A DNA stretch of 64,000 nucleotides from Planctomycetaceae bacterium (GCA_040375295.1 JBEISR010000004.1:122584-186583), one strand, 5' to 3'; positions 17,911 to 38,186 are shown, numbered from the stretch's first letter. Numbers and translations: made by a program. The notes: generated by a model not told the origin, from the sequence alone.

Positions 17911-18579
17911 TCAATCGCCAGAATCGATCTTCGGGACCAGCAATCGCATCGCAGCAGCGGCATCGACAGCGGACAAGGAGCGCGTTTGCCGCGTCTCCTT
18001 CGCGACGCACGACTCCAGCAAAAGGGCTCGCGGCAGAGATGCCAAGCCACGCACCCGTGTTCGTGGTGGAACTGGTAGACCAGCTTCACTCCTTCGCTTC
18101 ACCTCATCCATGCACTGCTCATCGGATCGGAACCATTTCCACGTCCCCTCTTCTTCCCAATAGAGCATCGGTGGGATGGCCACTTCCAGCCGGTTTCCCT
18201 CCAGCAGTTCTGGAATCATCCGATGAAAGAAGAGCAAGAGAAGCATGCCGGCGTGGACTCCGTCGGCATCGGGATCCATCAGCAGTACGATACGACGGTA
18301 CTGCAGGGCGACACGAGTAGGAGGCGGGGCGGAATCCTCAGGGCCTGCAATCGCCACCAGCAACTGAGAGAGCAATGGATGATTTCGTATCTGCTGCTCG
18401 GAGCACTTGTAGGCGTTGCGAGGTTTGCCCTGCATCGCCATCACAGCTTGGTGCACCGGATCGCGCACCGCAAGTACCGCACGCGCGGCCGAGTCACCTT
18501 CTACCACCAGCAGTTCGCCCAACTCCTGCCTTCGGTCGGTACTGCATTCGACCAGATGGGTTTTCCAGCGACGTTCCAT
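17911..18579 (-). CDS. stand-alone Toprim domain protein (GyrB/ParE-derived)
   Basis: ELLVVEGDSAAR aligns with the GyrB ELYLVEGDSAGG motif. LLMDPDADGVHAGMLLLLFFHR aligns with [23 protein letters not shown]. No ATPase or transducer domain is present. Confidence 0.7.
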   Translation of the reverse strand: MERRWKTHLVECSTDRRQELGELLVVEGDSAARAVLAVRDPVHQAVMAMQGKPRNAYKCSEQQIRNHPLLSQLLVAIAGPEDSAPPPTRVALQYRRIVLLMDPDADGVHAGMLLLLFFHRMIPELLEGNRLEVAIPPMLYWEEEGTWKWFRSDEQCMDEVKRRSEAGLPVPPRTRVRGLASLPRALLLESCVAKETRQTRSLSAVDAAAAMRLLVPKIDSGD

Positions 18580-18758
18580 GGAGTTGGTCTTTCACTGCGG
18601 GGCAAAGAACTCTGCTGGATGTCCTCTGGAGCATCTGGGCCGCAGGGTCTTACCCCGGCCAGATCGCTAACGCTGGTATCCGGATGTATTCCCTCTCCAT
18701 CTGCCGTGTTAGATTGATGCAATCGAGCGCCAAATGCAACATCGAAAAGGATCCTGCC

Positions 18759-21107: not shown

Positions 21108-21385
21108 GGGGAGCGGTTTAGGAAAGCCGAAGGCGATCCCAGTCGCACGCCAGCCGCGCCTCGCAGGGCAGATGGCTTGAACGGATTTCTGTACCCTGAG
21201 GCTATGAACCCGGGGCGGTCGGTCGAGGTTCGGGGATTCGCTGCTCAGCAAGTAGCGATTCGCATCGGTTTCGATTCGCACCCGTCCTGTGGCTTGGAGT
21301 AGAATCGGAGCGTTGATCGGGCGAGGATTCCGGCCTTGGTGCCGGGAGGATGCGCCGACTCGATTCGCTGTCACTCCAATGAAGG

Positions 21386-24300
21386 TTGCTTATGTCGTCC
21401 CCATTTTTTCCTGTTGCAAAGCAGCATGAGAAGCGGAATCGTTTCTCCTTGTTCTTTTCTTTGTGTCTTGGCTTGCTGGCGCTTTCGTTGCCTGGGATTG
21501 CGGGCTGGACTGTTGCTGCCGACGAAGAGGTACCTGGGAAACAGTTTTTGAAGCGGCCGCCCCGCGCGAAAAAGGAGGCGTTGCCCTCCCCTGCCCTCCC
21601 ATGGCCGATGGTTCGGGGGGAGCGGATCGCGTTTCTTGGAGGTTCGTTAGCCGAGCGGCAGAACCTGTTTGGGCATTTGGAAGCGGGTCTGCATGAAGCA
21701 GCTCCCGACATGCAACTGGTGATTCGAAACTTCGGGCGACCAGGGGAAGAGGTAGCGATCCAGCAGCGGTCGGCCAACTACTCGCGGCTGGATGATCCGC
21801 TCGATGCTTTTGGTGCCGATACTTTTTTCTGTTTCTTCGGTTTTAATGAATCGTTCGCAGGGGCAGCAGGAGTCGATGCATTTCAGAACGCCTACGTGGC
21901 GATGATCGATCGCTACAGAAAGACTTACCCACGCGACGACGAAGGGTCGCAGCCACGATTTCTACTCTTCACTCCGATTGCGTTCGAAGAGACGGACGAT
22001 CCTCTGCAGGCCGACGGGAGGGCAGCCAACGAGCGGTTGGCGCAGTACGCCCAAGCGGTGCGCGAGGTAGGCAAGCAGCTGTCGATTCCGGTGGTCGAAC
22101 TATTTCAGCCGACGCTGGAAGCCTTCGCGGCGCAGCCCGGATGTCAGTTCACGATCCAGGGCTTTCAGCTCGACCAAGCAGGGGATGCGCTGTTGGCCTC
22201 GGTAGCCCTGCCGCAGATTCTGGGACGCGATCGAGCCGCAGTTGTTGGCAAAGATGCAGCGCGGCTGGAGAGGATTCGCAGTGTGGTCAACGACAAAAGC
22301 TGGATCCATCTACAGGATTACCGGATGCTCAACGGTTGGTATGTCTACGGTGGCCGTCGGACCTGGGATCACGAGACATTTCCTAGGGAGTATTTGAAAA
22401 TTCGAGGGATGGCTCAGGTTCGCGATCAGTATCTTTGGGACCTCGCGGCAGGAAAGCCGGTTCCTGCACAACCGGACGACTCTCAGACGGGCGACCTAGT
22501 AGTGCCCGATACCCGTTTCGGAAATCCTCAGCAGGACTACAGCGAGCCAGAGGAACTGCGGTATTTGAGCCCTGAGGAATCGATCGCCGCGATGGAGGTG
22601 CCGGAAGACCTACAGGTTCAGCTTTTCGCCGATGAGCGTCGATTCCCGGAGCTGGCCAAGCCGGTGCAATTAAACTTTGACGACCGAGGGCGACTGTGGG
22701 TTGCCTGCATGCCGACCTACCCCCAGTGGCGACCCGGTGATGCCAGGCCAGACGATCGACTGCTGATTTTTGAAGATGAGGATGGCGACGGGCAGGCAGA
22801 TCGGTGCAAAGTGTTTTATGACAAGCTGCATTGCCCAACTGGCTTTGAGTTCTACCGTGGCGGGGTGCTGGTGGTCGACCAGCCACGCTTGATCTGGCTG
22901 AAGGACACCGACGGCGACGATGTGGCCGACCAAGTGGTGCATCTTCTGGATGGATGGGGAACGGACGATACCCACCACACGATTGGCGCCTTCGAGAACA
23001 GCCATGGTGGGCTGCTGACGATGCTGGAAGGTGTGGCGATGAGCACTACGGTCGAGACGCCGTGGGGACCGAAGCGATGGCAGGGAGCGGCAGGGGCCTT
23101 TGAGCTTGACCCGGTCACGCTGGAGCTGCGACGCTTCACCACCCCCGGGTATGGCAATCCCTGGTGCATGGTCTACGACCCCTGGGGACAGGGGATCGTC
23201 GGGGACGGCACCACCGCGCAGCAGCACTGGGCAACTGCGCTCAGCGGCGCGCAGATCGGGCCTCGTAGGGGTCTCGACCCGATCTTCGACAACCAGGGAA
23301 TGCGGCCGGTGATCGGCAATGAGTTCTTGATCTCGAGGCATCTGCCTGATGCCTATCAAGGGGATTTCACCTATGCCTGCGTGATCAACATGAATGGGTT
23401 TCCACGATTCCGATTTGGCGACGATGGCGCGGGCCTGGCTGGGCAGCGCTTGATGCGCGCGGACGGGAAACCAGATGATCTGATTCGCAGCAGCGACAAA
23501 AACTTCCGTCCGGCCGATCCGCAAATTGGCCCCGACGGGGCGCTCTGGTTTGGCGATTGGTGCAATGCATTGATCGGGCACATGCAATACTCGCAGCGCG
23601 ATCCCAATCGGGATCACCAGCGAGGCAGAGTCTATCGACTGGTTGCCAAGGATCGACCGCTGGTCGTTCCGGCGACGCAGGCGGGCAAGAGCGAGATGGA
23701 GCTATTGGAGCAGTTGCGGGAGCCAGAGCCGAGGACAAGGTATCGCGTGCGCAATGCGCTGGCGGCGCGACCGACTGGGCAGGTGGTGGAGGCGGTGAGG
23801 CGTTGGTTGCCTACCATTCGCACTGAGGATCCTCAGGCCGATCGACTCCGCACCGAAGCGCTCTGGATCCTCCAGCGTCACCATGTTGTCGATTCCGGTT
23901 TGCTCAATGCGGTCCTTGACTCCAGTTCCAAGGAGGCGCGTTCGGCCGCTGTTCGCGTCGCTTCGGACCTGCAGCGTCTGATCCCGGAAAGGGAGCTATT
24001 CGAGATCCTTCGTTCGGCATCGAACGACGCGGACCCGAGGGTGCGTGCCGAAGCGGCGCGAGCTCTCAGCTTTTTTCCAAACGAAGAGTCGGTTCGGATG
24101 CTGCTAGAGATCGCCTCCAAGCCGATGGATAAATGGTTGGGGTATGTGGTCGAACATGCGATTGGGGCGACCGAGTCGACTTGGTCGCCTTTGCTGGAGC
24201 AGGGCAAGTTGGCGGATGCACCGGCCGACGGGATGAAGGCAGTTGACCGCTACCTCGCCTCCTCGCGTCCCGGTCTGGCTGCACAGAGGCACTTGGTCAC

Positions 24301-24775
24301 TCTGTTGAATCCTGAAAGTGGCGAGGTGGCGAAGGTGCGAGCCTACTCGGCGCTCTCCGGGCTTGCAGGGAACAAGGACAACGGGCAGGCGGTATTTGCA
24401 CGGGTATGTGCCAGCTGCCATAAGGTTGGCGACAAGGGATATGCGTTTGGACCCGAGCTCACGGATGTCGGAAGGCGACTGACCCGCTACGACCTGATCG
24501 AATCGATTGTCGATCCGAATGCCAAGATGGATAAAAAGTACCTGACCGAAATCATTCTCACCGACGATGGCAAGGTGCATACCGGCTTCATTGGAGAAGA
24601 GACCGACACGACGATTCTGCTGCTGCTGCCCGAGGGGAAGCGGGAAACGATCGCCAAGGAGGAGATCGAGGAGAGGAAGGTGGCGATGCAGAGCAGCATG
24701 CCGGAGAATCTGGGGGCAACGATTGCGCCGTCGGAGTTCCTGGATGTGATCGAGTATCTGGGATCGCTGAAGTAA
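21386..24775 (+). CDS. PVC-type heme-binding CxxCH protein with N-terminal SGNH/GDSL-like domain, membrane-bound-dehydrogenase domain and HEAT repeats
   Basis: Signal peptide present. IAFLGGSLAE and FGFNESF are SGNH-like. LFADERRFPELAKPVQLNFDDRGRLWV matches the Pirellula/Verrucomicrobium dehydrogenase N-terminal domain. The C-terminal region has CASCHKVGDKGYAFGPELTDVG. Confidence 0.8.
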   Translation: MLMSSPFFPVAKQHEKRNRFSLFFSLCLGLLALSLPGIAGWTVAADEEVPGKQFLKRPPRAKKEALPSPALPWPMVRGERIAFLGGSLAERQNLFGHLEAGLHEAAPDMQLVIRNFGRPGEEVAIQQRSANYSRLDDPLDAFGADTFFCFFGFNESFAGAAGVDAFQNAYVAMIDRYRKTYPRDDEGSQPRFLLFTPIAFEETDDPLQADGRAANERLAQYAQAVREVGKQLSIPVVELFQPTLEAFAAQPGCQFTIQGFQLDQAGDALLASVALPQILGRDRAAVVGKDAARLERIRSVVNDKSWIHLQDYRMLNGWYVYGGRRTWDHETFPREYLKIRGMAQVRDQYLWDLAAGKPVPAQPDDSQTGDLVVPDTRFGNPQQDYSEPEELRYLSPEESIAAMEVPEDLQVQLFADERRFPELAKPVQLNFDDRGRLWVACMPTYPQWRPGDARPDDRLLIFEDEDGDGQADRCKVFYDKLHCPTGFEFYRGGVLVVDQPRLIWLKDTDGDDVADQVVHLLDGWGTDDTHHTIGAFENSHGGLLTMLEGVAMSTTVETPWGPKRWQGAAGAFELDPVTLELRRFTTPGYGNPWCMVYDPWGQGIVGDGTTAQQHWATALSGAQIGPRRGLDPIFDNQGMRPVIGNEFLISRHLPDAYQGDFTYACVINMNGFPRFRFGDDGAGLAGQRLMRADGKPDDLIRSSDKNFRPADPQIGPDGALWFGDWCNALIGHMQYSQRDPNRDHQRGRVYRLVAKDRPLVVPATQAGKSEMELLEQLREPEPRTRYRVRNALAARPTGQVVEAVRRWLPTIRTEDPQADRLRTEALWILQRHHVVDSGLLNAVLDSSSKEARSAAVRVASDLQRLIPERELFEILRSASNDADPRVRAEAARALSFFPNEESVRMLLEIASKPMDKWLGYVVEHAIGATESTWSPLLEQGKLADAPADGMKAVDRYLASSRPGLAAQRHLVTLLNPESGEVAKVRAYSALSGLAGNKDNGQAVFARVCASCHKVGDKGYAFGPELTDVGRRLTRYDLIESIVDPNAKMDKKYLTEIILTDDGKVHTGFIGEETDTTILLLLPEGKRETIAKEEIEERKVAMQSSMPENLGATIAPSEFLDVIEYLGSLK

Positions 24776-24845
24776 GTGACTCAGGGGGACCGGAATCTGG
24801 CGATCTGCCAGACATGAATGGTTGCCGGTGGAGGAAGGGGGATCG

Positions 24846-27800
24846 ATGTACGGCGGGCGCTTTGCCTTCGAGAGACCCGAGTACCTGCTGTTGCTTCTGG
24901 TGCTGTTACCCTGGATCTATTGGGTCAGCCGCCAGTCGTTGGCGGGTCTGGGACCGGTGCGTCGGTGGCTGGCCCTTCTGCTCCGTTCGCTGGTCCTGCT
25001 TCTGATCGTCGCGGCGCTTGCGGGCGTGCAGTGGGTTTGGACCAGTCAAAAGATGACGGTTCTGTACCTACTGGATCAGTCGGACAGTATCCCTGCCCCA
25101 AAACGGCAACTGATGCTTCAGTTTGCGATCGAAAATGCCAATGCTCACCGTCGCGCGGCGAGACAGGACCGCGCTGGGTTGATCATTTTTGGTCGAGAGG
25201 CGGCAGTGGAGTTTCCTCCTCTGGACGACGATCTTCCCCCGATTCGCACGCCGGAAAGCTACTTGGGAAAGACCGATGCCACCAATCTGGAAGGGGCCTT
25301 GAAACTGGCCAAGGCCAGCTTTCCGGAGGGAGCTTCGCGTCGAATCGTCGTGCTCACCGATGGCAATGAGACGCTGGGTGCTGCAGCGCCGGTGGCTCAA
25401 AGCTTGGCGGACGAAGGGATTGGCATCGACATCGTCCCCATTCGACTGGATTCCCAGTCGGAGGTTTTGGTCGAAAAGATCGACATACCGGCTCAGGTGA
25501 AGCAGGGCCAGATGGTCGATGCCAAAGTGGTGCTCCAGCGCTACAGTCAGGAGCCCGATGCCCCAGCGACGCGCGGTGTCCTTCGGGTGACGCGCCGGAT
25601 GGGCAACCAGGCCGAACTGCTGGCCGAGGAGGAAGTCTCGCTGGACAAGCCCTTGAGTGTCTTTCCGGTGCCGCATCGCGTCGAGTATGCATCGGGTTAT
25701 ACCTACGAAGCACAGTTCATCCCGGCGGAAGCTTCACAGGATGCGCTGGCACAGAACAATCAGGCGACCGCCTTTTCGTATGCCCGCGGCAAAGGGCGGG
25801 TGCTGTTGATCGAGGATGCGGGACGACGTGGCGAATTCCAATTGCTGGTAGATGCCCTGCGACGCAGCGAGATCGAGGTGGAGGTGCGCGACCCGGCTGC
25901 GCTCTTTTCCAGTTTGATCGAACTTCAGGCCTTCGACTCCGTGATCCTCGCTGGTGTCCCTAGGACCAGTGGCGAAGCAGCGACCGAATTGACCACGATC
26001 TCCGACGAGCAGATTGAATTGATGGTGCGCAATACCCAGCAGTTCGGAGGTGGGCTACTGATGCTGGGGGGGCCTGAAGCCTTTGGCGCCGGTGGCTGGA
26101 GCAATACCAAGCTGGAGGAGGCGATGCCAGTCGACTTTCAGATCAAGAACAGCAAGATGGAAGCGGTTGGCGCTCTGGCGATGGTGATGCATGCATCGGA
26201 GATCGCGCAGGGGAACTTCTGGCAGAAGATGATCGGAAAAGCCGCCCTCGATGTCCTCGGCCCGCTCGATTATTGCGGGGTAATCGAGTACCAGGGGTCG
26301 GAGAAGTGGATGTGGGGAAATCGCTACGGGATGCTGAAGGTGGGCCCGAATCGTTCGGTGATGCGATCGCGGATGACGCGAATGACTCCCGGAGATATGC
26401 CTGATTTTGATCCTTCGATGCGATTAGCTTTGGCAGGGCTCACCAACACCCCCGCCGCCACCAAGCACATGATCGTCATCAGCGATGGCGACCCTTCACC
26501 TGCTTCAGCCGGAGTTTTGGATGGCTTCGTCAAGCAGTCGATCAAGGTGTCGACGGTGGCCGTTGGGGCGCATGGTCCGGCAGGTCATCAGGAGCTGCAG
26601 CGGATCGCCAACACGACGGGAGGCAACTATTACGTCGTCACCAATCCCAACGCTCTGCCGCAGATCTTCGTTCGCGAAGCCCGCCGTGTTGCTCGGCCAC
26701 TTGTCTACGAGCCCGAAGGGGGTGTCGTCCCTCAGATGCTGTTTCGGCACGAGATTCTGGCTGGGCTGCCACAGCAGTTGCCCCCTGTACGCGGATTCGT
26801 GTTGACGCAGCTGAAAGAAAGCCCCCTGGTGGAAGTCCCGCTTCGCTCGCCTATGCCCGCCGAGCCAGAGAATGCGACGTTGCTTGCGACCTGGACGTAC
26901 GGATTGGGGCGCACTGCAGCCTTCACGACCGATGCTGGCCAACGCTGGGCAGCTCAATGGGCCACCTGGCCGCAGTTCGATCAGTTTTTCAGTCAACTGG
27001 TCCGGTGGACGATGCGTCCCACCCAGGATGATGGCAAGTTCCAAATCGCAACCCAGGTGCGCGATGGCCGGGTGCAGTTGGTCGTCAGCGCCCTGGACGA
27101 GGAAGATCGGTTCCTAAACTTTCTTGATCTGTCGGCCGCGGGCGTTGGTCCCGATCTGAAACCCTTCACCATTCGGATGGCGCAGTCGGCGCCCGGCAGA
27201 TACGTCGGCGATTTCGAAGCCAGCCAGTCAGGCAGCTACCTGCTTAGTGTCATCCCGGGCCCGGGGCGTGCGCCCTTGATCACGGGGGTCAATGTTCCTT
27301 TTTCCGACGAGTACCGGGTGCGTCAGGCCAATTTGGGATTGCTGACACAGATGGCTTCCCTCAAAGCTTCCGGAGGCCAGACCGGCATGGTGACTGAGCC
27401 TCTGGAGTCGATGTCGCTGAAGGAGTTGCTGTCGTGGGACAGCTACCGCGAAGGGGTGCCACCTGCGATTTCATTGCAGGATATCTGGCCCTGGGCGGTG
27501 CTGCTGGGATCGGTGCTGTTTTTCACCGATGTGCTGGTCCGCCGCGTGGCGATCGACCCCGGCGCGTGGCTCAGGTGGTTGGCCAAGCGGAGAGCGGCCC
27601 GCACCGCTGTCGTACCCGACGAACGACTCGATCGCCTCCGAAAGCAAAAGTCGGAGGTCAGTGGAGAACTGGCTCGGCGAGCCGGGGGGATCGACGATGG
27701 CGATTCCGATCAGGGTCGCGAGTCAACGCGAACCAGTTCACCGAGTGATGCGGCCGCAGCGATTCAGTCTTTTGATTCGCTGGATTCCTCTGCCAAGCCA

Positions 27801-27935
27801 ACCTCACAGCCAGGGGCAGCGCCACCCGCTGCATCTCCAGGAATGGCCGATGCCAAGGAAGACACCAGCTATACTTCCCGATTGTTGCAGGCCAAACGCG
27901 ATGCCCAGAAAAAGAATCCTCCTACCAATCCGTAA
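24846..27935 (+). CDS. large BatA-N/vWA domain membrane protein
   Basis: ORF 24822-27935. I prefer the ATG at 24846 because GGAAGGGGG lies upstream. The N-terminus is FERPEYLLLLLVLLPWIYW, an aerotolerance-regulator N-terminal type. It has two vWA-like blocks (VLYLLDQSDSI and MIVISDGDPS), a C-terminal TM and a Pro/Ser/Ala-rich tail. Confidence 0.75.
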   Translation: MYGGRFAFERPEYLLLLLVLLPWIYWVSRQSLAGLGPVRRWLALLLRSLVLLLIVAALAGVQWVWTSQKMTVLYLLDQSDSIPAPKRQLMLQFAIENANAHRRAARQDRAGLIIFGREAAVEFPPLDDDLPPIRTPESYLGKTDATNLEGALKLAKASFPEGASRRIVVLTDGNETLGAAAPVAQSLADEGIGIDIVPIRLDSQSEVLVEKIDIPAQVKQGQMVDAKVVLQRYSQEPDAPATRGVLRVTRRMGNQAELLAEEEVSLDKPLSVFPVPHRVEYASGYTYEAQFIPAEASQDALAQNNQATAFSYARGKGRVLLIEDAGRRGEFQLLVDALRRSEIEVEVRDPAALFSSLIELQAFDSVILAGVPRTSGEAATELTTISDEQIELMVRNTQQFGGGLLMLGGPEAFGAGGWSNTKLEEAMPVDFQIKNSKMEAVGALAMVMHASEIAQGNFWQKMIGKAALDVLGPLDYCGVIEYQGSEKWMWGNRYGMLKVGPNRSVMRSRMTRMTPGDMPDFDPSMRLALAGLTNTPAATKHMIVISDGDPSPASAGVLDGFVKQSIKVSTVAVGAHGPAGHQELQRIANTTGGNYYVVTNPNALPQIFVREARRVARPLVYEPEGGVVPQMLFRHEILAGLPQQLPPVRGFVLTQLKESPLVEVPLRSPMPAEPENATLLATWTYGLGRTAAFTTDAGQRWAAQWATWPQFDQFFSQLVRWTMRPTQDDGKFQIATQVRDGRVQLVVSALDEEDRFLNFLDLSAAGVGPDLKPFTIRMAQSAPGRYVGDFEASQSGSYLLSVIPGPGRAPLITGVNVPFSDEYRVRQANLGLLTQMASLKASGGQTGMVTEPLESMSLKELLSWDSYREGVPPAISLQDIWPWAVLLGSVLFFTDVLVRRVAIDPGAWLRWLAKRRAARTAVVPDERLDRLRKQKSEVSGELARRAGGIDDGDSDQGRESTRTSSPSDAAAAIQSFDSLDSSAKPTSQPGAAPPAASPGMADAKEDTSYTSRLLQAKRDAQKKNPPTNP

Positions 27936-27990
27936 CCCGCTTGGTGTTGACCCTCTGGGGCACCTGAGCGGTTCGAAGGAATGAAAGAAC

Positions 27991-29001
27991 ATGAGCCAAA
28001 CTGATCCCCAGATGTTGCAGCAGCAAGCCGAACAGTTTCGCGATCGGTATCGCAGTTTGCGGGAGGAAATCGGGAAGGTGATTGTCGGTCATGAGGAGAT
28101 CGTCCAAGGCGTGCTGACGGCGATCTTCGTCGGAGGTCACTGCCTGCTGGAAGGGGTCCCCGGCCTCGGCAAGACACTGCTGATCAAAACGCTCTCGGAA
28201 ACTTTATCGTTGGATTTCAACCGCATCCAGTTCACACCCGATCTGATGCCCTCCGATATCCTCGGGACGAACATGATCGTCGAGACGCCGGAGGGACGTC
28301 GCAGCTTCCAATTCCAGAAAGGGCCGATCTTCACTCAGATCTGCTTAGCTGACGAAATCAACCGCGCGACACCCAAGACGCAGTCGGCCCTCCTGGAAAC
28401 GATGCAGGAAGGTTCGGTGACAGCCGCCGGTACGCGTTATGAACTGAAGAAACCGTTTTTCGTCCTGGCGACACAGAATCCGATCGAACAGGAAGGAACC
28501 TACCCACTGCCCGAAGCTCAGTTGGATCGATTCCTTTTCAAGCTGGTGGTAGGGTATTCGACCCGCGAGGAGCTCAACACGATCATCGACCGAACTACGC
28601 GTGGCGTGAAGTTAGTGCCGGAGAAGGTGATGGATGGTGAGGAGATCCTGAAGTGGCAGCAGCTGATCCGGCAGGTGGTACTGGCCCCCAATCTGCAGGA
28701 TTACATCGCCCGCCTGGTACTGGCAACCCACCCTGAGGGCCAGCACGCGGTGGCAGCAACCAATCGATCGTTGCGTTGGGGTTCCAGTCCGCGCGGAGCC
28801 CAGTCGATTGCGCTTGCAGCCAAGGTTCGGGCTCTTCTAGATGCTCGCTACAACGTCAGTTTCGAAGACATCCGACGCGTCTATCTGCCTGCGCTGCGCC
28901 ACCGAGTGGTCCTGGACTACGAGGCAGTAGCGGAGGGCCGCACCACCGATCAGGTGCTGAGAGAGCTTCTGGAGCAGGTCCCCGAACGTCTGGAAGGTTG
29001 A
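27991..29001 (+). CDS. MoxR family AAA+ ATPase
   Basis: GHCLLEGVPGLGKTL is the Walker A and CLADEINRA the Walker B. VLATQNP and the C-terminal SPRG region (WGSSPRGAQS) are present. Confidence 0.92.
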   Translation: MSQTDPQMLQQQAEQFRDRYRSLREEIGKVIVGHEEIVQGVLTAIFVGGHCLLEGVPGLGKTLLIKTLSETLSLDFNRIQFTPDLMPSDILGTNMIVETPEGRRSFQFQKGPIFTQICLADEINRATPKTQSALLETMQEGSVTAAGTRYELKKPFFVLATQNPIEQEGTYPLPEAQLDRFLFKLVVGYSTREELNTIIDRTTRGVKLVPEKVMDGEEILKWQQLIRQVVLAPNLQDYIARLVLATHPEGQHAVAATNRSLRWGSSPRGAQSIALAAKVRALLDARYNVSFEDIRRVYLPALRHRVVLDYEAVAEGRTTDQVLRELLEQVPERLEG

Positions 29002-33400: not shown

Positions 33401-33716
33401 CGATGGTTCCAAGTCGAGCGAGGGGGGAAATGGATTCCCTGACGCTCCATCGTATCGGTCTGGACAGTCGCAGGGGGCGGGCAGAAGCAAAAAGGGTTGT
33501 CGCTGGTTCCCATGGGAGCCCAGCAGTTATTCGGCTCCCGCGGCCTGGATATCGCGAAGGGGGGCTGGGTATCCGCTAGGGTCGAACTGGCGATCGGTTG
33601 GCAGTTGGTGATGCCAAGGTCAGAGTCTACAATGAAGGGAGGTTGGTGGAGGCGGTATGGGATCGCCCTTTTCGGACGGACGATCGATTTTAAAAAAGGG
33701 CAGATGGACGCATCCG

Positions 33717-34451
33717 ATGGCCAACGAATCTCAGGGGGTGGATGCGAAGACCTATGAGGATCTTCAGCGGCGGTACCATGAACTGGCGGAGTTGGCCGGT
33801 TCGTTGGCTCACGAGATCAAGAATCCGCTTTCCGTCATCCACATGAACGTCGATTTGCTTAGCGAGGAGCTAGTCGAGTGCCAGGTTCCTGGATTGCGTC
33901 GATCGATGGCCAAGGTCGATATGATCCGGCACCAGTGCGAGCGGATGGAGACCTTGCTGAGGGATTTTCTGCGGTACGCTCGGATGCGCGATCTGGAGAT
34001 GACGCCGGGTGACTTGAACGAGCAGATCAACACGGTGCTGAAGCTCTATCAGGCACAGGCGACCAAGTTGGGTGTCGAGATCGTCCGTTACCTCGACCCA
34101 AACCTTCCCTCCATCATGCTCCATAGCGACTCCCTCCAGGCGGCTCTGATCAATCTGGTAAAGAATGCCTTGGAAGCGATGCCTGAAGGAGGGCAACTGG
34201 TGGTGCGCAGCCACGCGACGGCCGGTGGCGTAGCGCTGGATTTGATCGACACCGGTTGCGGGATGGACGAGAACACAGCGATGAATATGTTCGAGCCCTT
34301 TTACTCGACTAAGGCAGGTGGATCTGGGTTGGGGCTGCCGACCGCGCGAAAGATCATCGAGGCGCACGGTGGACGGATACGCGTCCAGAGCGAACTGGAT
34401 CGCGGGACGAAATTCGTTCTGGAGTTCCCCATGCCGGTGCGGCTGCGATGA
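33717..34451 (+). CDS. cytoplasmic histidine kinase (HisKA + HATPase_c only)
   Basis: ORF 33657-34451, with a likely start MANESQG at 33717. The H-box is SLAHEIKNPLS, the N-box LVKNALEAM and the G-boxes DTGCGMD and GGSGLGLPTARKIIEAHGG. I see no TM or sensor domain. Confidence 0.85.
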   Translation: MANESQGVDAKTYEDLQRRYHELAELAGSLAHEIKNPLSVIHMNVDLLSEELVECQVPGLRRSMAKVDMIRHQCERMETLLRDFLRYARMRDLEMTPGDLNEQINTVLKLYQAQATKLGVEIVRYLDPNLPSIMLHSDSLQAALINLVKNALEAMPEGGQLVVRSHATAGGVALDLIDTGCGMDENTAMNMFEPFYSTKAGGSGLGLPTARKIIEAHGGRIRVQSELDRGTKFVLEFPMPVRLR

Positions 34452-37400
34452 ATAGCAGACGGGATGGCCAGGACGGATCGGGTGATCGATCCAGTCGGTG
34501 GATTCCCGGTGCGCGGCTGGCCGATGGGGCTATGGAGGGAAGTTGGTGGCGTCCGGCTGAAGAAGACCAGGGCGGTTTGGATGGCACGATTCTGTGCACG
34601 CTTTGCCCACGTCAGTGCATGCTGAAGCCAGGGGATCGAGGGTTCTGTTTCGTGCGAGAGAATCGCGACGGCCGAATGGTGCTGAGCACTTTCGGACGCA
34701 GCACTGGACTTTGCATCGATCCGATTGAAAAAAAGCCACTTTTCCATTTCTACCCGGGAACCAGCGTGCTTTCGCTGGGGACGGCGGGATGCAACCTGGG
34801 ATGCAAGTTCTGCCAGAACTGGGATATCTCCAAAAGTCGGCAGGTGGAGCGGCTTAGTGCGAAGGCAGAGCCAGATCAGATCGTGGCTGCGGCGCTGGAG
34901 CATCGATGCCGCAGCGTCGCCTTCACCTACAACGACCCGGTGGTGTGGGCCGAATACGCGATCGCCACGGCGAGGGCGTGTCGGCAGGCCGGTGTTGCTG
35001 CCGTGGCTGTCACGGCCGGCTATATCCAGCCGGAGGCGCGGGGCCCATTTTTTGAGGCAATGGATGCGACCAACATCGATCTGAAAGGGTTCACCGAATC
35101 GTTCTACTGGAAGACCACCTCGGCTCATTTGCAGCCGGTTCTGGACACGATCCGGTATGTCCATCGCGAAACCGATTGCTGGATGGAACTGACCAACCTG
35201 ATGATTCCTGGAGTCAACGACTCCCCGGACGATTTTCGAAGGATGTGTGAGTGGATTCTTGGGAACGTCGGGGATCGGGTGCCGTTGCATCTTACGGCGT
35301 TTCATCCCGATTTCCGGATGATGGATCGTCCGCCCACGCCGCTGGAAACTCTTCTGGAAGCCCACCAGATCGCCATCGGTTGCGGGCTGAAGTATATCTA
35401 TATTGGCAATGTGGCCAACGACCACCAGTCGACCCGATGTCCACACTGCGGGCATCCGGTTGTACTTCGACACGGCTACACGATCGATGCGTATCACCTG
35501 ACCGATGGAAACTGCAGCGCATGTGGCGGTACGATTGCAGGTCGCTGGGGTGCTGCAGTGGGTCGTTGGGGGGCACGTCGACAGCCGATTTCCATCGCAA
35601 ATCAAATTTCTTCTCCTCAAGGACTTCATGGCATGCAGCCGTCGAACCCCTCGGTGACGCTTCCCGAATGGACCATCGATCAATGGAGAGTTATTCATCG
35701 ACAGGCAGCACGATGGCTGGCGCTCTCCGCGATGCAGCAGACGCTGCCTAGCGAGCCGGCTTCGGAGGAGCTGACCGAGCTGGCGGGGGTGGAGTTGGAG
35801 GGATGCTTTGTCAGCGTCCGGCGCGGAAAATTGCTGCGTGGATGTTGCGGCAGTTTGGGGCGAGGTCGATTGGAAGATCAGCTGCGTACCTGCAGCTACC
35901 GCACCGCCTGCGAAGACCATCGCATGGCGTCGCTGTCTCCTATCGAGCTGCAGTATCTGGACCTCGAAGTCACCGTTCTGGGGCCCTGTGAGCCGCTGCT
36001 GGGTGGGGCCGATCAGTGGCCAAGTCAGATCGTGCTGGGAACCCATGGTCTGCGACTGCGATATCGCGATCACCAGGGCGTGTTGCTGGTGTCGGTTCCG
36101 ATCGAACAAGGGTGGAACGTCGAGCAGTTTCTAGGAGGGCTCTGCAGGAAAGCGGGACTGCAGGAGAGAGCATGGAAGGAATTGCCGGTGACGATAGAGC
36201 GGTTCGAGGGGCGGGTTCACGGAGCGCCGCTGATCGATGCATTGCCGGAGCTTCCCAAAACGGCTCGGCGAGGCACCATCCATCCGGATCAGGTGAAAAA
36301 CCTGAGGGCCTTAGTCGGGAGCAACATGCTGGCGATCGCTCAGGGAGCCACGCCATCGTACACCGCTCCCGATCTTCCCGACGGTACGGTTCAAGGACTG
36401 GTCCTGTCGCTGTGGGAGGAGGGGGCAGCGAGTGCCATGGCGCACCTGATCCGCCTCAGTTTGCGCCCTGGAGTCCCATTGCAGTCGACCCTTTTCGAAC
36501 TGGCCAAAACCGCGTCGCAAATTCTTCAGCAAGCAAGGCCCGGTCGACATCTGCAGGTACAGGTGGAACTGGCGGTGCTGACCGATCCGGTTCCGATCGG
36601 TGGGACGCTTGCTAACGAACGATGGGCAGGCAGGACTCCCTCGGTGGCCGACCTGGAGGAAAGTGGCTTGGATTGGCGAGGGCATGATCCTGGTCGTCGC
36701 GCAATCGTCGCCATGCAGGGAGGAGAGCGGGTATCGGTCACGTGGGATGCTTTCTCCACACCCGACGCCCTCATCGATCAGGGGCTCCAGCATCTGACGC
36801 GCCGCGCAGCCCCCGTGACGATCTATTCGATGGCGGTGGTCGCCACCAAGCCGCAGGGGATCGCGACCAGTGCGGCTGGAGCTCAGATGGGACCTGGGAT
36901 CCGTCCACCCGCCGTGGCGGGTAGCTTTTATCCGGCGACCGACGAGGAACGATGGCATGGGGAAGCTCCATGGATCGTCCAGGCACCTGCCGATCGGCAG
37001 TCGGTGCTGGCAGCCATGGTGCCTCATGCTGGCTGGGGGTACTGCGGGAAGATTGTCAGCGAGCTGTTTTCGTCGATCGAGTTTCCGAAGTCGGTTTTGC
37101 TGATTGGCCCCAAGCATACGCGAGAAGGGGTCGACTGGGCGGTCAGTCCGCACCGAGCCTGGGAGATTCCCGACAGCACTCCGATGGAAGTCGACCTGCC
37201 GCTCACCGAGCAGATTGCCACGCACGTAACCGGGATGCAATTGGATGTCGCGGCCCATCGTAGGGAACACGGAATCGAAGTGCTGCTGCCGATGCTGAAG
37301 CGGTGGAGCCCTTCCAGTCGCGTCGCGGCGATGGTTTTGGCGGACGGGTCCTGGAGTGAGATCCAGAGGGCAGCCGTGGAGTTGGCCGAAGTGATTCGAC

Positions 37401-37750
37401 GCCAGGCGACCAGACCGCTGCTGGTGGTCTCCTCCGACTTGAATCATTACGCGGCGGATGCCGAGAACCGACGGCGCGATGCGATGGCGCTGGAAGCGAT
37501 TCAGACGGGGGATCCCGAGCAATTGCTGGCGGTCTGTCGCGAGCAGCGGATCAGCATGTGCGGAGTCATTCCGGCGGCGCTGGTGATGGAGACGCTGCGG
37601 CAATTGGGATGCGATGCCCGATGGCATCTGCAACGTTACGCTACCAGCGCTGATGCGGGGGGGGATCCCCGCCGGGTTGTCGGCTATGCGGGAGGCTACT
37701 GGCTGAATGCATCCAATCCACCGCAAGTCCAGGAGGCTAGATCCTCATGA
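34448..37750 (+). CDS. fusion protein: AmmeMemoRadiSam-type radical SAM enzyme + AMMECR1 domain + unassigned module + Memo domain
   Basis: The N-terminal part has CTLCPRQC...GFCFVREN and GCNLGCKFCQNWDIS. The middle part has GCFVSVRRGKLLRGCCGSLG and VPIEQGWNVEQFLGGLCRKAGL. The C-terminal part has AVAGSFYP, MVPHAGWGYCG, LIGPKHT, HGIEVLLPML and VVSSDLNHY. An alternative start is Met29 at 34532. Confidence 0.8.
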   Translation: MNSRRDGQDGSGDRSSRWIPGARLADGAMEGSWWRPAEEDQGGLDGTILCTLCPRQCMLKPGDRGFCFVRENRDGRMVLSTFGRSTGLCIDPIEKKPLFHFYPGTSVLSLGTAGCNLGCKFCQNWDISKSRQVERLSAKAEPDQIVAAALEHRCRSVAFTYNDPVVWAEYAIATARACRQAGVAAVAVTAGYIQPEARGPFFEAMDATNIDLKGFTESFYWKTTSAHLQPVLDTIRYVHRETDCWMELTNLMIPGVNDSPDDFRRMCEWILGNVGDRVPLHLTAFHPDFRMMDRPPTPLETLLEAHQIAIGCGLKYIYIGNVANDHQSTRCPHCGHPVVLRHGYTIDAYHLTDGNCSACGGTIAGRWGAAVGRWGARRQPISIANQISSPQGLHGMQPSNPSVTLPEWTIDQWRVIHRQAARWLALSAMQQTLPSEPASEELTELAGVELEGCFVSVRRGKLLRGCCGSLGRGRLEDQLRTCSYRTACEDHRMASLSPIELQYLDLEVTVLGPCEPLLGGADQWPSQIVLGTHGLRLRYRDHQGVLLVSVPIEQGWNVEQFLGGLCRKAGLQERAWKELPVTIERFEGRVHGAPLIDALPELPKTARRGTIHPDQVKNLRALVGSNMLAIAQGATPSYTAPDLPDGTVQGLVLSLWEEGAASAMAHLIRLSLRPGVPLQSTLFELAKTASQILQQARPGRHLQVQVELAVLTDPVPIGGTLANERWAGRTPSVADLEESGLDWRGHDPGRRAIVAMQGGERVSVTWDAFSTPDALIDQGLQHLTRRAAPVTIYSMAVVATKPQGIATSAAGAQMGPGIRPPAVAGSFYPATDEERWHGEAPWIVQAPADRQSVLAAMVPHAGWGYCGKIVSELFSSIEFPKSVLLIGPKHTREGVDWAVSPHRAWEIPDSTPMEVDLPLTEQIATHVTGMQLDVAAHRREHGIEVLLPMLKRWSPSSRVAAMVLADGSWSEIQRAAVELAEVIRRQATRPLLVVSSDLNHYAADAENRRRDAMALEAIQTGDPEQLLAVCREQRISMCGVIPAALVMETLRQLGCDARWHLQRYATSADAGGDPRRVVGYAGGYWLNASNPPQVQEARSS

Positions 37751-37772
37751 GGAACGCAGCCGAAAGGTCACG

Positions 37773-38186
37773 ATGGGAGACAACCGCTTGAAAGGAACGA
37801 AGCGCTGGGATGCCGACCACTGGAAGAGGAAGTTTCGCCAAGCTGCACGGGGAGTCCTCTGGGGGATGGAGGGGCAGTCGAGCTTTCTGGTCCACGGAGT
37901 GATGGCGGTAGCCGTATTGGTTTTCGCTGCATCGCTGCAGTGCAGTCAGTCCGAGTGGTTGCTGCTGATTCTCTGCATCGGGGGTGTGATGACGGCGGAG
38001 CTGTTCAACAGTGCGCTGGAGTGGATGGGCCGGGGGTTGTGCCGTGAAGAGAACGCGGAACTGGGGAGGGGACTGGATATCGCCAGTGGCGCTGTGCTGG
38101 TGGCTTCGATCGCGGCGGCGATCGTCGGGCTGGTGATCCTAGGTGGCCGCATCCTGTCGCTGATGGGTTTTGGGGTGGTAGAGTGA
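37773..38186 (+). CDS. dgkA: diacylglycerol kinase family protein (DgkA/undecaprenol kinase-like)
   Basis: ORF 37707-38186. The ATG at 37773 lies 22 nt after the upstream stop. FRQAARGVLWG, three TM helices and TAELFNSALE fit prokaryotic DAGK. Confidence 0.78.
   Translation: MGDNRLKGTKRWDADHWKRKFRQAARGVLWGMEGQSSFLVHGVMAVAVLVFAASLQCSQSEWLLLILCIGGVMTAELFNSALEWMGRGLCREENAELGRGLDIASGAVLVASIAAAIVGLVILGGRILSLMGFGVVE

What the first reader, a model, noticed from the sequence alone, without database searches (positions are those of the whole stretch)
33657..38186. Sensor-less histidine kinase overlapping (ATGA) a single polypeptide that carries all three AmmeMemoRadiSam components, followed by dgkA
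Seen in the sequence:
- The kinase has only HisKA and HATPase_c. I see no TM or sensor domain, and no response regulator anywhere in the 64 kb.
- Its TGA (34449-34451) overlaps the ATG (34448-34450) of a 1100-aa ORF.
- That ORF contains, in order: a radical SAM enzyme (CNLGCKFCQNWDIS plus CTLCPRQC and C-terminal CPHCG...CSACGG), an AMMECR1 domain (LLRGCCGSLG; GWNVEQFLGGLCRKAGL), about 200 aa I cannot assign, and a Memo domain (AGSFYP, VPHAGWGYCG, SSDLNHY).
- dgkA starts 22 nt after its stop.

Established knowledge: these three families co-occur as the AmmeMemoRadiSam system. Its substrate and role are still unknown, and as far as I recall it is usually encoded as separate or pairwise-fused genes.

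Inference: an all-in-one fusion tied to a kinase suggests a phospho-regulated enzyme machine and gives a handle on the system's function. A lipid or membrane connection through DgkA is only a guess.
Basis: partly seen in the sequence, partly recalled or inferred. Interest (0 to 1): 0.8.

Follow-up and report, generated by a model that had tools for sequence, protein, structure and literature searches.

The report
Planctomycete all-in-one AmmeMemoRadiSam enzyme
The 1100-residue protein really does combine a radical SAM enzyme, AMMECR1 and Memo in one chain, but this is the usual form of the system in planctomycetes and public databases already name it as such; the kinase next to it is there in only two lineages, and the dgkA neighbour only in a small subclade.

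Summary
A 264-aa histidine kinase with no sensor domain (33657-34451) overlaps by ATGA a 1100-aa ORF (34448-37750). That ORF carries a TIGR04337 radical SAM domain, an AMMECR1 domain and a Memo domain. dgkA starts 22 nt after its stop. No receiver domain is found anywhere in the 64 kb.

- The triple fusion is not unusual. It is the standard architecture in Planctomycetota: at least 120 protein clusters and 45 species genomes were sampled, and NCBI and JGI already name it.
- The kinase belongs to a widespread small planctomycete kinase family that has no sensor domain anywhere. Elsewhere it sits beside pnp and, in distant orthologs, an NtrC-type regulator. It precedes the fusion only in the window's own species and in one other MAG.
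- dgkA follows the fusion, with overlapping stop and start codons, in 5 of the 7 closest relatives. It does so in 0 of 40 other genomes. This makes a weak lipid lead that is specific to one clade.

It lacks the catalytic cysteine, has no Pfam model, is under purifying selection, and occurs only between AMMECR1 and Memo. The substrate remains unknown.

The parts
33491..33656 (.). Divergent intergenic region between the M48 peptidase gene (minus strand) and the kinase. It contains GGAGG at 33648-33652, 4 nt before the kinase ATG. This is the presumed promoter region of a kinase-fusion-dgkA transcript.
   Evidence: Sequence read. The consensus promoter scan found nothing above the shuffled controls, so the promoter is inferred, not shown.
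33657..34451 (+). Cytoplasmic histidine kinase with no sensor domain: DHp/HisKA (33786-33989) plus HATPase_c (34125-34436). H-box is SLAHEIKNPL.
   Evidence: Pfam. The best NCBIfam partial matches are AtoS and ZraS, over the C-terminal halves only. An upstream in-frame stop at 33633-33635 leaves no room for a sensor. Orthologs are 59-77% identical and equally short in 80 metagenome loci. dN/dS is 0.037.
34448..34451 (+). ATGA overlap between the kinase stop and the fusion start.
   Evidence: The overlap is conserved in L083. In L002 the fusion ATG lies 12 nt after the kinase TAA.
34448..37750 (+). Single-polypeptide AmmeMemoRadiSam protein of 1100 aa and four domains.
   Evidence: The full-length AF2 model has pLDDT 88.2 and pTM 0.72.
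34580..35596 (+). Radical SAM domain (residues 45-383). It has an N-terminal Cys group (C50, C53, C57, C67), the CX3CX2C motif (C115, C119, C122) and a C-terminal CX2C...CX2C (C331, C334, C356, C359).
   Evidence: TIGR04337 scores 532 bits. All these cysteines are invariant in 74 homologs. The closest solved fold is PFL-activating enzyme 3cb8, TM 0.75.
35597..35758 (+). Inter-domain linker (residues 384-437), variable in sequence and length. The model is low-confidence over residues 388-400.
   Evidence: Alignment gaps and length variation. pLDDT is below 50 at residues 388-400. dN/dS is 0.66.
35759..36217 (+). Canonical AMMECR1 domain (residues 438-590) with LRGCCG (R464, C466, G468) and DxR (D490, R492).
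   Evidence: PF01871 scores 109 bits. The motifs are as defined in PMC2034487 and are invariant. Sequence matches to 1vaj, 1zq7 and 1wsc.
36245..36883 (+). Second, degenerate AMMECR1-like domain (about residues 600-812). It lacks the catalytic Cys and the DxR motif. Its own motifs are GATPSY, PDGTV and RPGxPLQSTLF.
   Evidence: No Pfam hit at E<=10. The AF2 model has pLDDT 87.7. The top four Foldseek hits are AMMECR1 structures at probability 1.00. hhalign against AMMECR1 gives P=0.0013-0.0017, against 0.4-0.6 for controls. Only 229 clusters match among 1.84e9 representatives, and in every one checked the domain sits between AMMECR1 and Memo. dN/dS is 0.078.
36902..37696 (+). Memo domain (residues 819-1083) with invariant H860, H890, H937, E940, H941, D997, N999, H1000 and C1038.
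   Evidence: PF01875 scores 151 bits and TIGR04336 217 bits. Human MEMO1 structures match at TM 0.80. Invariant columns are listed.
37773..38186 (+). dgkA: prokaryotic diacylglycerol/polyprenol kinase family, 137 aa.
   Evidence: PF01219 scores 81 bits over the full-length profile. GAAAGG lies at 37762-37767. dN/dS is 0.084. The same gene directly follows the fusion in P0002, P0004, P0006 and P0008.

Best explanation
The region encodes the ordinary planctomycete version of the AmmeMemoRadiSam system, written as one four-domain polypeptide: radical SAM, then AMMECR1, then a Cys-less AMMECR1-like duplicate, then Memo.

Shown:
- Domain identities, and conservation of all catalytic and metal-binding motifs.
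- Purifying selection on every domain.
- A confident compact model.
- The same architecture across Planctomycetota.

Inferred mechanism:
- The radical SAM domain is closest in fold to PFL-activating enzyme. It reductively cleaves SAM, and the 5'-deoxyadenosyl radical abstracts a hydrogen from a substrate held in the AMMECR1 cleft, possibly through Cys466.
- The Memo domain's His/Asp/Cys metal site performs a further metal-dependent step on the same substrate.
- The Cys-less AMMECR1-like domain acts as an extra substrate-binding or bridging module between AMMECR1 and Memo.
- Fusion enforces 1:1:1 stoichiometry and substrate hand-over.
- The substrate is unknown. Candidates are an RNA base or an isoprenoid or glycerolipid.

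The flanking genes are lineage-specific operon partners, not part of the system:
- The kinase is an ortholog of a conserved, sensor-less, AtoS/ZraS/NtrB-like planctomycete kinase. Its regulator is probably an NtrC-type protein encoded elsewhere in this genome.
- The dgkA pairing is a feature of one subclade.
For: Domains and motifs.

Architecture is the norm:
- All of the best 120 of 1450 homolog clusters are 1028-1136 aa with all three Pfam domains. Several are named 'AmmeMemoRadiSam system radical SAM enzyme/protein B/protein A'.
- 45 full-length fusions occur among GTDB species genomes from Pirellulaceae, Planctomycetaceae, Gimesia, Fuerstiella, Singulisphaera, Thermoguttaceae and Phycisphaerae.
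- WP_146528554.1 from the cultured Novipirellula artificiosorum has the same architecture.

Middle domain. Selection. Compact model with pTM 0.72.

Kinase is not specific to the system:
- 1 of 45 other fusion loci has it.
- No conserved neighbour of the fusion appears at all. The best neighbour cluster is in 6 of 45 loci.
- 80 kinase-ortholog loci were examined. The fusion lies downstream only in the window's own species (L082, L083).
- pnp lies upstream in 16 loci by ORF clustering. In the stricter per-locus test, which counted only loci holding enough sequence, it is adjacent in 8 of 37.
- An NtrC-type regulator lies downstream in 11 loci by clustering. It is adjacent within 700 nt in 6 of 40.
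- Downstream genes of the closest kinase orthologs all differ.

Prior literature had already described the rSAM-AMMECR1-dioxygenase neighbourhood and AMMECR1-dioxygenase fusions (PMC2034487).
Against: - No biochemical function is known for any of the three families in bacteria, so every mechanistic step is inference.
- Kinase-fusion coupling is tight in two lineages whose fusions are only ~47% identical and which share no other synteny: a 4-nt overlap here and a 12-nt spacer in L002. Both fall in one clade with 80% bootstrap support. An ancestral, possibly selected, kinase-fusion-dgkA operon is therefore not excluded.
- TIGR04335 scores 1.6 bits below NCBI's cut-off.
Confidence: 0.72

Rival explanations
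1. The sensor-less kinase is functionally tied to the fusion enzyme. Either it phosphorylates and regulates the enzyme, or the enzyme serves as the kinase's missing sensor, as PII does for NtrB, reporting substrate or redox state to an orphan regulator.
For: - The ATGA overlap is conserved in the 88%-identical strain, and L002 has a 12-nt spacer even though its flanks are otherwise shuffled.
- The kinase has no input domain of its own in any ortholog.
- No partner regulator lies within 64 kb.
- Both adjacencies map to one clade with 80% bootstrap support.
Against: - The adjacency is absent from 44 of 45 other fusion genomes, from six close relatives, and from every kinase-ortholog locus with enough downstream sequence outside the window's species.
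- The fusion carries no receiver, HPt or other known phospho-acceptor domain.
- Distant kinase orthologs pair with an NtrC-type regulator and with pnp.
- Genes with zero or overlapping spacing are hard to separate by rearrangement, so retention of the pair can be neutral.
Confidence: 0.12
2. The fusion works on a membrane lipid such as diacylglycerol or a polyprenol, or on a derivative of one. DgkA is its pathway partner, phosphorylating the lipid alcohol substrate or product.
For: - A DAGK_prokar gene directly follows the fusion, with a 1-4 nt stop/start overlap, in P0002, P0004, P0006 and P0008. In the window the spacer is 22 nt. All other flanking genes differ among these loci.
- The four dgkA-linked loci form a clade with 82% bootstrap support.
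- From my memory of its abstract, Burroughs et al. 2019 (J Biol Chem 294:10211) linked Memo contexts to aliphatic isoprenoid modification. The paper was not held in the library.
Against: - 0 of 40 other full-length fusion loci with enough downstream sequence have an adjacent DgkA by iterated profile search.
- It is absent in the close relatives P0003 and P0005 and in L002.
- The fusion has no predicted membrane segment.
- Overlapping genes resist separation, so retention may be neutral.
Confidence: 0.25
3. The system modifies an RNA base, as originally predicted for AMMECR1. Alternatively, the PFL-AE-like radical SAM domain installs a radical or a modification on a residue of its own partner domains, in an activase-client arrangement, rather than acting on a small molecule.
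For: - AMMECR1 is built of RAGNYA nucleic-acid-binding folds with a Tyw3-like cleft and a catalytic Cys, and an RNA base modification was predicted for it (PMC2034487; PMC4075521).
- The nearest solved fold to the radical SAM domain is PFL-activating enzyme bound to a peptide substrate (3cb8, TM 0.75). NCBIfam secondary hits are glycyl-radical activases.
Against: No RNA-metabolism gene is conserved next to the fusion in 45 genomes. No glycyl-radical-type motif was tested. All of this is by analogy.
Confidence: 0.3
4. The 1100-aa ORF is an assembly or sequencing artefact that hides stops or frameshifts between separate genes.
For: A few relatives are split: L050 has overlapping ORFs, and L042 has two ORFs in the same frame one stop codon apart.
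Against: - The identical uninterrupted ORF occurs in three independent assemblies and in an 88%-identical strain.
- Forty-five other species genomes and more than 120 clusters have the same single ORF.
- There is purifying selection across the domain junction regions.
Confidence: 0.01

Closest known systems
AmmeMemoRadiSam system (NCBIfam/TIGRFAMs TIGR04337 radical SAM enzyme, TIGR04335 protein A, TIGR04336 protein B)
   Same: All three component families are present with their catalytic motifs. The radical SAM and B components score far above their cut-offs.
   Different: Here they form one polypeptide, not three genes as in Proteobacteria (L076, L078-L080). There is an extra AMMECR1-like domain between A and B. 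The A model scores 97.4 against a cut-off of 99.
Planctomycete triple-fusion proteins already in databases, for example WP_146528554.1 (Novipirellula artificiosorum, 1052 aa) and HUG91003.1
   Same: Same domain order, the same middle domain and the same invariant residues, at 45-51% identity.
   Different: This copy comes from a divergent freshwater lineage whose nearest relative is ~50% identical. It is the only one seen with both the kinase upstream and dgkA downstream.
AMMECR1-dioxygenase (Memo) fusions and the rSAM-AMMECR1-dioxygenase neighbourhood described by Balaji & Aravind 2007 (PMC2034487)
   Same: The same three families are functionally linked, and the RGChG Cys and DxRa motifs are present.
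   Different: That paper describes pairwise fusions. The passages I retrieved mention neither the triple fusion nor a Cys-less second AMMECR1-like domain.
AtoS/ZraS/NtrB-type histidine kinases with NtrC-family partners
   Same: HisKA plus HATPase_c core. The best NCBIfam alignments are to the AtoS and ZraS C-terminal halves. Distant orthologs sit immediately upstream of a receiver-AAA+ sigma54-type regulator.
   Different: No PAS, TM or other input domain in any ortholog. No regulator in this window. Scores lie far below every equivalog cut-off, so it is not an AtoS or ZraS ortholog.
DgkA (prokaryotic diacylglycerol kinase / undecaprenol kinase family, PF01219)
   Same: Full-length profile match. 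The AELFNSALE motif resembles the E. coli DgkA catalytic segment; that comparison is from my own knowledge.
   Different: Substrate unknown. No NCBIfam model matches. It is translationally coupled to the AmmeMemoRadiSam fusion only in this subclade.

Membership tests
AmmeMemoRadiSam system radical SAM enzyme (TIGR04337) | Whole-protein HMM score above the curated cut-off of 220 bits | tested here: met
   532.3 bits; residues 45-383 cover profile positions 9-349 of 349.
AmmeMemoRadiSam system radical SAM enzyme (TIGR04337) | CX3CX2C [4Fe-4S]/SAM motif | tested here: met
   C115-N-L-G-C119-K-F-C122, invariant in 74 homologs.
AmmeMemoRadiSam system radical SAM enzyme (TIGR04337) | SAM cleavage or radical chemistry | not testable with these tools
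   Needs anaerobic biochemistry.
AmmeMemoRadiSam system protein A (AMMECR1; TIGR04335 / PF01871) | HMM score above cut-off | tested here: inconclusive
   TIGR04335 scores 97.4 bits against a cut-off of 99, narrowly below. Pfam AMMECR1 scores 108.8 bits against 25, clearly above.
AmmeMemoRadiSam system protein A (AMMECR1; TIGR04335 / PF01871) | RGChG catalytic-Cys motif and DxRa motif (PMC2034487) | tested here: met
   LRGCCG (R464, C466, G468) and EDHRM (D490, R492) are invariant. The aromatic position after R is Met here.
AmmeMemoRadiSam system protein B (Memo; TIGR04336 / PF01875) | HMM score above cut-off and a MEMO1-like fold | tested here: met
   216.8 bits against 26 and 151 bits against 27. 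TM 0.80 to human MEMO1 structures.
AmmeMemoRadiSam system (as a system) | Co-occurrence of all three components in one locus | tested here: met
   All three lie in one ORF.
Two-component system (kinase plus cognate response regulator) | HisKA phospho-acceptor His and HATPase_c catalytic domain | tested here: met
   HisKA 44.7 bits and HATPase_c 88 bits. H-box AHEIKNPL. N, G1, F and G2 boxes are visible in the translation.
Two-component system (kinase plus cognate response regulator) | Cognate receiver-domain protein encoded nearby | tested here: not met
   0 receiver hits in 790 window ORFs. Distant orthologs have an NtrC-type regulator downstream.
Two-component system (kinase plus cognate response regulator) | Sensor or input domain | tested here: not met
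   Only 43 residues precede HisKA, and an upstream in-frame stop closes the frame. Orthologs are equally short.
Prokaryotic diacylglycerol kinase (PF01219) | HMM score above the gathering threshold over the full profile | tested here: met
   80.7 bits against 22.3, covering profile positions 2-102 of 102.
AMMECR1 (for the middle domain, residues about 600-812) | Sequence-profile membership and catalytic motifs | tested here: not met
   No Pfam hit at E<=10. hhalign probability is only 7-16%. The Cys and DxR motifs are absent. Only the fold matches (Foldseek probability 1.00, TM 0.39-0.48). It is therefore AMMECR1-like in fold but is not filed as a family member.

The most novel reading that the evidence does not exclude
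An ancestral three-gene operon, kinase then four-domain AmmeMemoRadiSam enzyme then DgkA, arose in one Pirellulales-like clade. It survives intact only in this lineage because the parts work together. On this reading the enzyme modifies a membrane lipid that DgkA phosphorylates, and the input-less NtrB-like kinase reads the enzyme's state and signals to a distant NtrC-type regulator. This would give the first functional handle on the AMMECR1/Memo/radical SAM system, which has human disease-linked homologs.
Probability: 0.07. Interest if true: 0.7.

Novelty: new member of a known kind. Interest (0 to 1): 0.3.

Why it matters
AMMECR1 and MEMO1 are conserved from archaea to humans and are linked to human disease, yet their biochemistry is unresolved. 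Any solid genomic context for the bacterial system is therefore useful.

This window does not supply the hoped-for kinase handle. It offers three smaller things:
- It documents that Planctomycetota encode the whole system as one polypeptide, which gives a convenient single-protein target for biochemistry.
- It shows that the previously unassigned middle segment is a conserved, Cys-less AMMECR1-like domain with no Pfam model.
- It identifies a subclade in which dgkA is translationally coupled to the enzyme. That is a weak but testable lead towards lipids.

Tried and rejected
- Hidden stops or assembly artefact: rejected. Three independent assemblies, an 88%-identical strain, 45 species genomes and the dN/dS values all argue against it.
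- Met29 as the start: disfavoured. The conserved DG..G.WW motif starts before it, and the ATGA junction and open frame are kept in L083. The first 28 residues are, however, weakly constrained (dN/dS 0.34).
- ATG 37707 as the dgkA start: disfavoured. Relatives are 123-129 aa, and L083 uses a nearby downstream ATG.
- Single-sequence phmmer for DgkA neighbours first gave 0 hits and looked like complete absence. Look-ups of the closest relatives showed that this missed a real subclade signal, because those relatives were not among the scanned loci. An iterated profile then confirmed absence elsewhere.
- Promoter and terminator consensus scans were no better than shuffled controls.
- No tRNA or Rfam hits in the window.
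- Pfam and PDB sequence searches of the middle domain found nothing. Only the fold search and hhalign were informative.
- Burroughs et al. 2019 could not be retrieved by DOI or PMC id. What I say about it is from memory.
- A literature search for 'AmmeMemoRadiSam' found only incidental annotation mentions.
- Model coordinates are not exposed, so inter-domain contacts could not be analysed.

Full report
**1. Observation check**

The ORF map confirms the kinase at 33657-34451 and a 1100-aa ORF at 34448-37750 on the + strand. The DNA reads CTGCGATGAATAGC, so the fusion's ATG (34448-34450) overlaps the kinase's TGA (34449-34451).

Pfam finds only HisKA (residues 44-111) and HATPase_c (157-260) in the kinase. 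An in-frame TGA at 33633-33635 closes the frame just upstream, so there is no room for a sensor or membrane segment. A GGAGG lies 4 nt before the kinase ATG.

The fusion holds these domains:
- TIGR04337 radical SAM, residues 45-383, 532 bits against a cut-off of 220.
- AMMECR1, residues 438-590, Pfam 109 bits. TIGR04335 scores 97.4 against a cut-off of 99.
- Memo, residues 819-1083, TIGR04336 217 bits.

dgkA (PF01219, 81 bits) most likely starts at ATG 37773, 22 nt after the fusion's TGA, with GAAAGG 5 nt upstream.

Two receiver-domain searches over all 790 six-frame ORFs of the window found nothing, even at E<=10 with filters off. The same queries found receivers in control loci.

**2. Not an artefact**

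The same uninterrupted ORF is found at 99.5% nucleotide identity in an ENA assembly (L001) and a JGI assembly (L082). It is also in an 88%-identical strain on a 312-kb contig (L083), which keeps the ATGA junction.

Window-versus-L083 dN/dS values:
- Radical SAM 0.081, AMMECR1 0.098, middle region 0.078, Memo 0.16.
- Kinase 0.037, DgkA 0.084.
- Only the 384-437 linker (0.66) and the first 28 residues (0.34) are relaxed.

**3. The triple fusion is the planctomycete norm**

The protein search returned 1450 clusters at E<=1e-10. The best 120 are all 1028-1136 aa with Radical_SAM, AMMECR1 and Memo. They come from Pirellulales, Planctomycetaceae and relatives. JGI names many of them 'AmmeMemoRadiSam system radical SAM enzyme/protein B/protein A', and NCBI names them 'AmmeMemoRadiSam system radical SAM enzyme'. 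One is WP_146528554.1 from the cultured Novipirellula artificiosorum.

A scan of one genome per GTDB species found 598 relatives. Of the 80 kept, 45 are full-length fusions, all in Planctomycetota. Outside the phylum the components are separate genes (L076, L078-L080) or only the radical SAM gene was detected.

The neighbourhood of AMMECR1 with a radical SAM enzyme and a ring-opening dioxygenase, and AMMECR1-dioxygenase fusions, were already described in 2007 (PMC2034487). The nearest relative of the window's protein is only ~50% identical, so this is a divergent new member and not a new kind.

**4. The unassigned ~200 aa**

The region between AMMECR1 and Memo is conserved across the family, with motifs GATPSY, PDGTV and RPGxPLQSTLF. 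It matches no Pfam model at E<=10 and no PDB sequence.

An AlphaFold model built from a 33-sequence alignment is confident, with pLDDT 87.7 and pTM 0.84. Its top four Foldseek matches are 1zq7 (chains A and B), 1vaj and 1wsc, all at probability 1.00 and E from 1e-5 to 2e-4. The next hit has probability 0.08. The canonical AMMECR1 domain of the same protein hits exactly these three entries by sequence, and the literature cites them as AMMECR1 structures.

Profile-profile alignment of the middle domain against the family's own AMMECR1 domain is weak but collinear over ~140 columns, with P=0.0013-0.0017. Three control domain pairs give P=0.4-0.6. The RGCxG cysteine and the DxR motif are not retained.

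An exhaustive profile search of 1.84 billion representatives finds only 229 clusters. The domain's position within them fits an AMMECR1-X-Memo order, and Pfam confirmed AMMECR1 and Memo on either side in the eight multidomain proteins scanned; two ~240-aa hits had no Pfam match. Some planctomycete fusions (L043, L053) and the Thermoguttaceae and Verrucomicrobiales two-gene forms lack it.

I read it as a degenerate, non-catalytic duplicate of AMMECR1 that serves as a binding or bridging module.

**5. The kinase**

A metagenome scan found 365 relatives. The 80 kept are 59-100% identical and equally short, so the lack of a sensor is a family trait. The fusion follows the kinase only in L082 and L083, which are the window's own species and share the full synteny EamA / M48 / kinase / fusion / dgkA / asparaginase / SDR.

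Among the others, unbiased clustering of flanking ORFs shows:
- PNPase upstream in 16 loci, with rpsO further upstream.
- A receiver-AAA+ NtrC-type regulator downstream in 11 loci, all among the more distant orthologs.
- Downstream genes that all differ among the closest orthologs.

From the fusion's side, only 1 of 45 other genomes (L002, a Pirellulaceae MAG) has the kinase upstream. There the fusion ATG lies 12 nt after the kinase stop. None of six closest relatives has it. The fusion has no conserved neighbour at all; the best neighbour cluster is in 6 of 45 loci. It also has no phospho-acceptor domain.

The idea of a phospho-regulated machine therefore lacks support. The caveat is that the window and L002 share the tight junction but no other synteny. 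Both fall in a clade with 80% bootstrap support. An ancestral operon is possible, and overlapping genes are also simply hard to separate.

**6. dgkA**

Look-ups of the closest fusion relatives (49-52% identity) show a DAGK_prokar gene directly after the fusion, with a 1-4 nt overlap, in P0002, P0004, P0006 and P0008. It is absent in P0003 and P0005. All other flanking genes differ.

An iterated DgkA profile finds no adjacent copy in 40 other full-length fusion loci. The four dgkA-linked loci form a clade with 82% support, and the window joins them together with L164 and L166 at 65%.

This is a real but clade-restricted linkage. It is compatible with a lipid substrate. From memory, Burroughs et al. 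2019 linked Memo contexts to isoprenoid modification; the paper was not retrievable. It is equally compatible with neutral retention of overlapping genes.

**7. Mechanism (inference)**

All catalytic and metal-binding residues are invariant:
- Radical SAM: C115, C119 and C122, plus the N- and C-terminal Cys groups.
- AMMECR1: R464, C466, G468, D490 and R492.
- Memo: H860, H890, H937, E940, H941, D997, N999, H1000 and C1038.

Structural neighbours are PFL-activating enzyme for the radical SAM domain (TM 0.75), PH0010 for AMMECR1 (TM 0.77) and human MEMO1 for Memo (TM 0.80).

The most likely picture is a single-chain assembly line. It begins with SAM-derived radical initiation on a substrate held by, or tethered to, Cys466 of AMMECR1. 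A metal-dependent step at Memo follows. The Cys-less duplicate provides extra binding surface. The substrate class (RNA base, lipid, or a residue of the protein itself) cannot be decided from sequence.

**8. Verdict**

This is a new member of a known, already annotated architecture. The kinase link is weak, and the dgkA link is modest and clade-specific. The cryptic AMMECR1-like domain is a small new structural annotation. Interest is about 0.3.

Noticed in passing
window 37747-37791; L083 10052 onward: A second ATGA sits at the fusion's own stop (ATG 37747-37749, TGA 37748-37750). That ATG opens a 14-codon out-of-frame ORF that runs past the dgkA ATG at 37773. The 88%-identical strain L083 also has ATGA at its fusion stop, opening a short ORF that spans its dgkA start. 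It may be a bridging mini-ORF for translational coupling, or it may be chance.
   Followed up: partly
L136-L155 (metagenome loci), e.g. L148 7189-8655, L088 3601-5853: Orthologs of the window's kinase form a highly conserved planctomycete family (59-77% identity) that has no sensor domain anywhere. The recurring context is rpsO-pnp upstream and, in the more distant members, an NtrC-type receiver-AAA+ regulator immediately downstream. The window has none of these genes.
   Followed up: partly
L042 7-2670; L050 5899-9188; L043; L053; L072; L063: The system varies in architecture within and near Planctomycetota. L043 and L053 are triple fusions without the middle domain. L072 (Phycisphaerae) has a 215-aa gap that the middle-domain HMM does not recognise. 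L042 (Thermoguttaceae) has the radical SAM part and an AMMECR1-Memo part in the same frame, separated by a single stop codon. L050 (Fuerstiella) has two overlapping ORFs. These could be real splits, frameshifts or sequencing errors.
   Followed up: partly
L002 2179-2196: In L002 the kinase and the fusion are in the same reading frame, separated by one TAA and four codons before the fusion's ATG. A single stop-codon change there would fuse the kinase to the enzyme.
   Followed up: no
window 34448-34531 (fusion residues 1-28) and 35597-35758 (residues 384-437): The N-terminal 28 residues and the linker between the radical SAM and AMMECR1 domains evolve much faster than the domains (dN/dS 0.34 and 0.66). 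The model is low-confidence over residues 1-15 and 388-400. The linker varies from about 40 to more than 100 residues among homologs.
   Followed up: yes
window about 18375-29001 (upstream gene cluster; L001 1-4554): Upstream lie very large ORFs: 910 aa, 1129 aa (GDSL lipase / DUF7133 / HEAT / cytochrome c hits) and 1037 aa (VWA). A MoxR-type AAA+ gene and a DJ-1/PfpI gene follow them. This is a typical planctomycete BatA/MoxR-like cluster and appears unrelated to the finding.
   Followed up: no
whole window: No tRNA genes and no Rfam family reach threshold anywhere in the 64 kb.
   Followed up: yes
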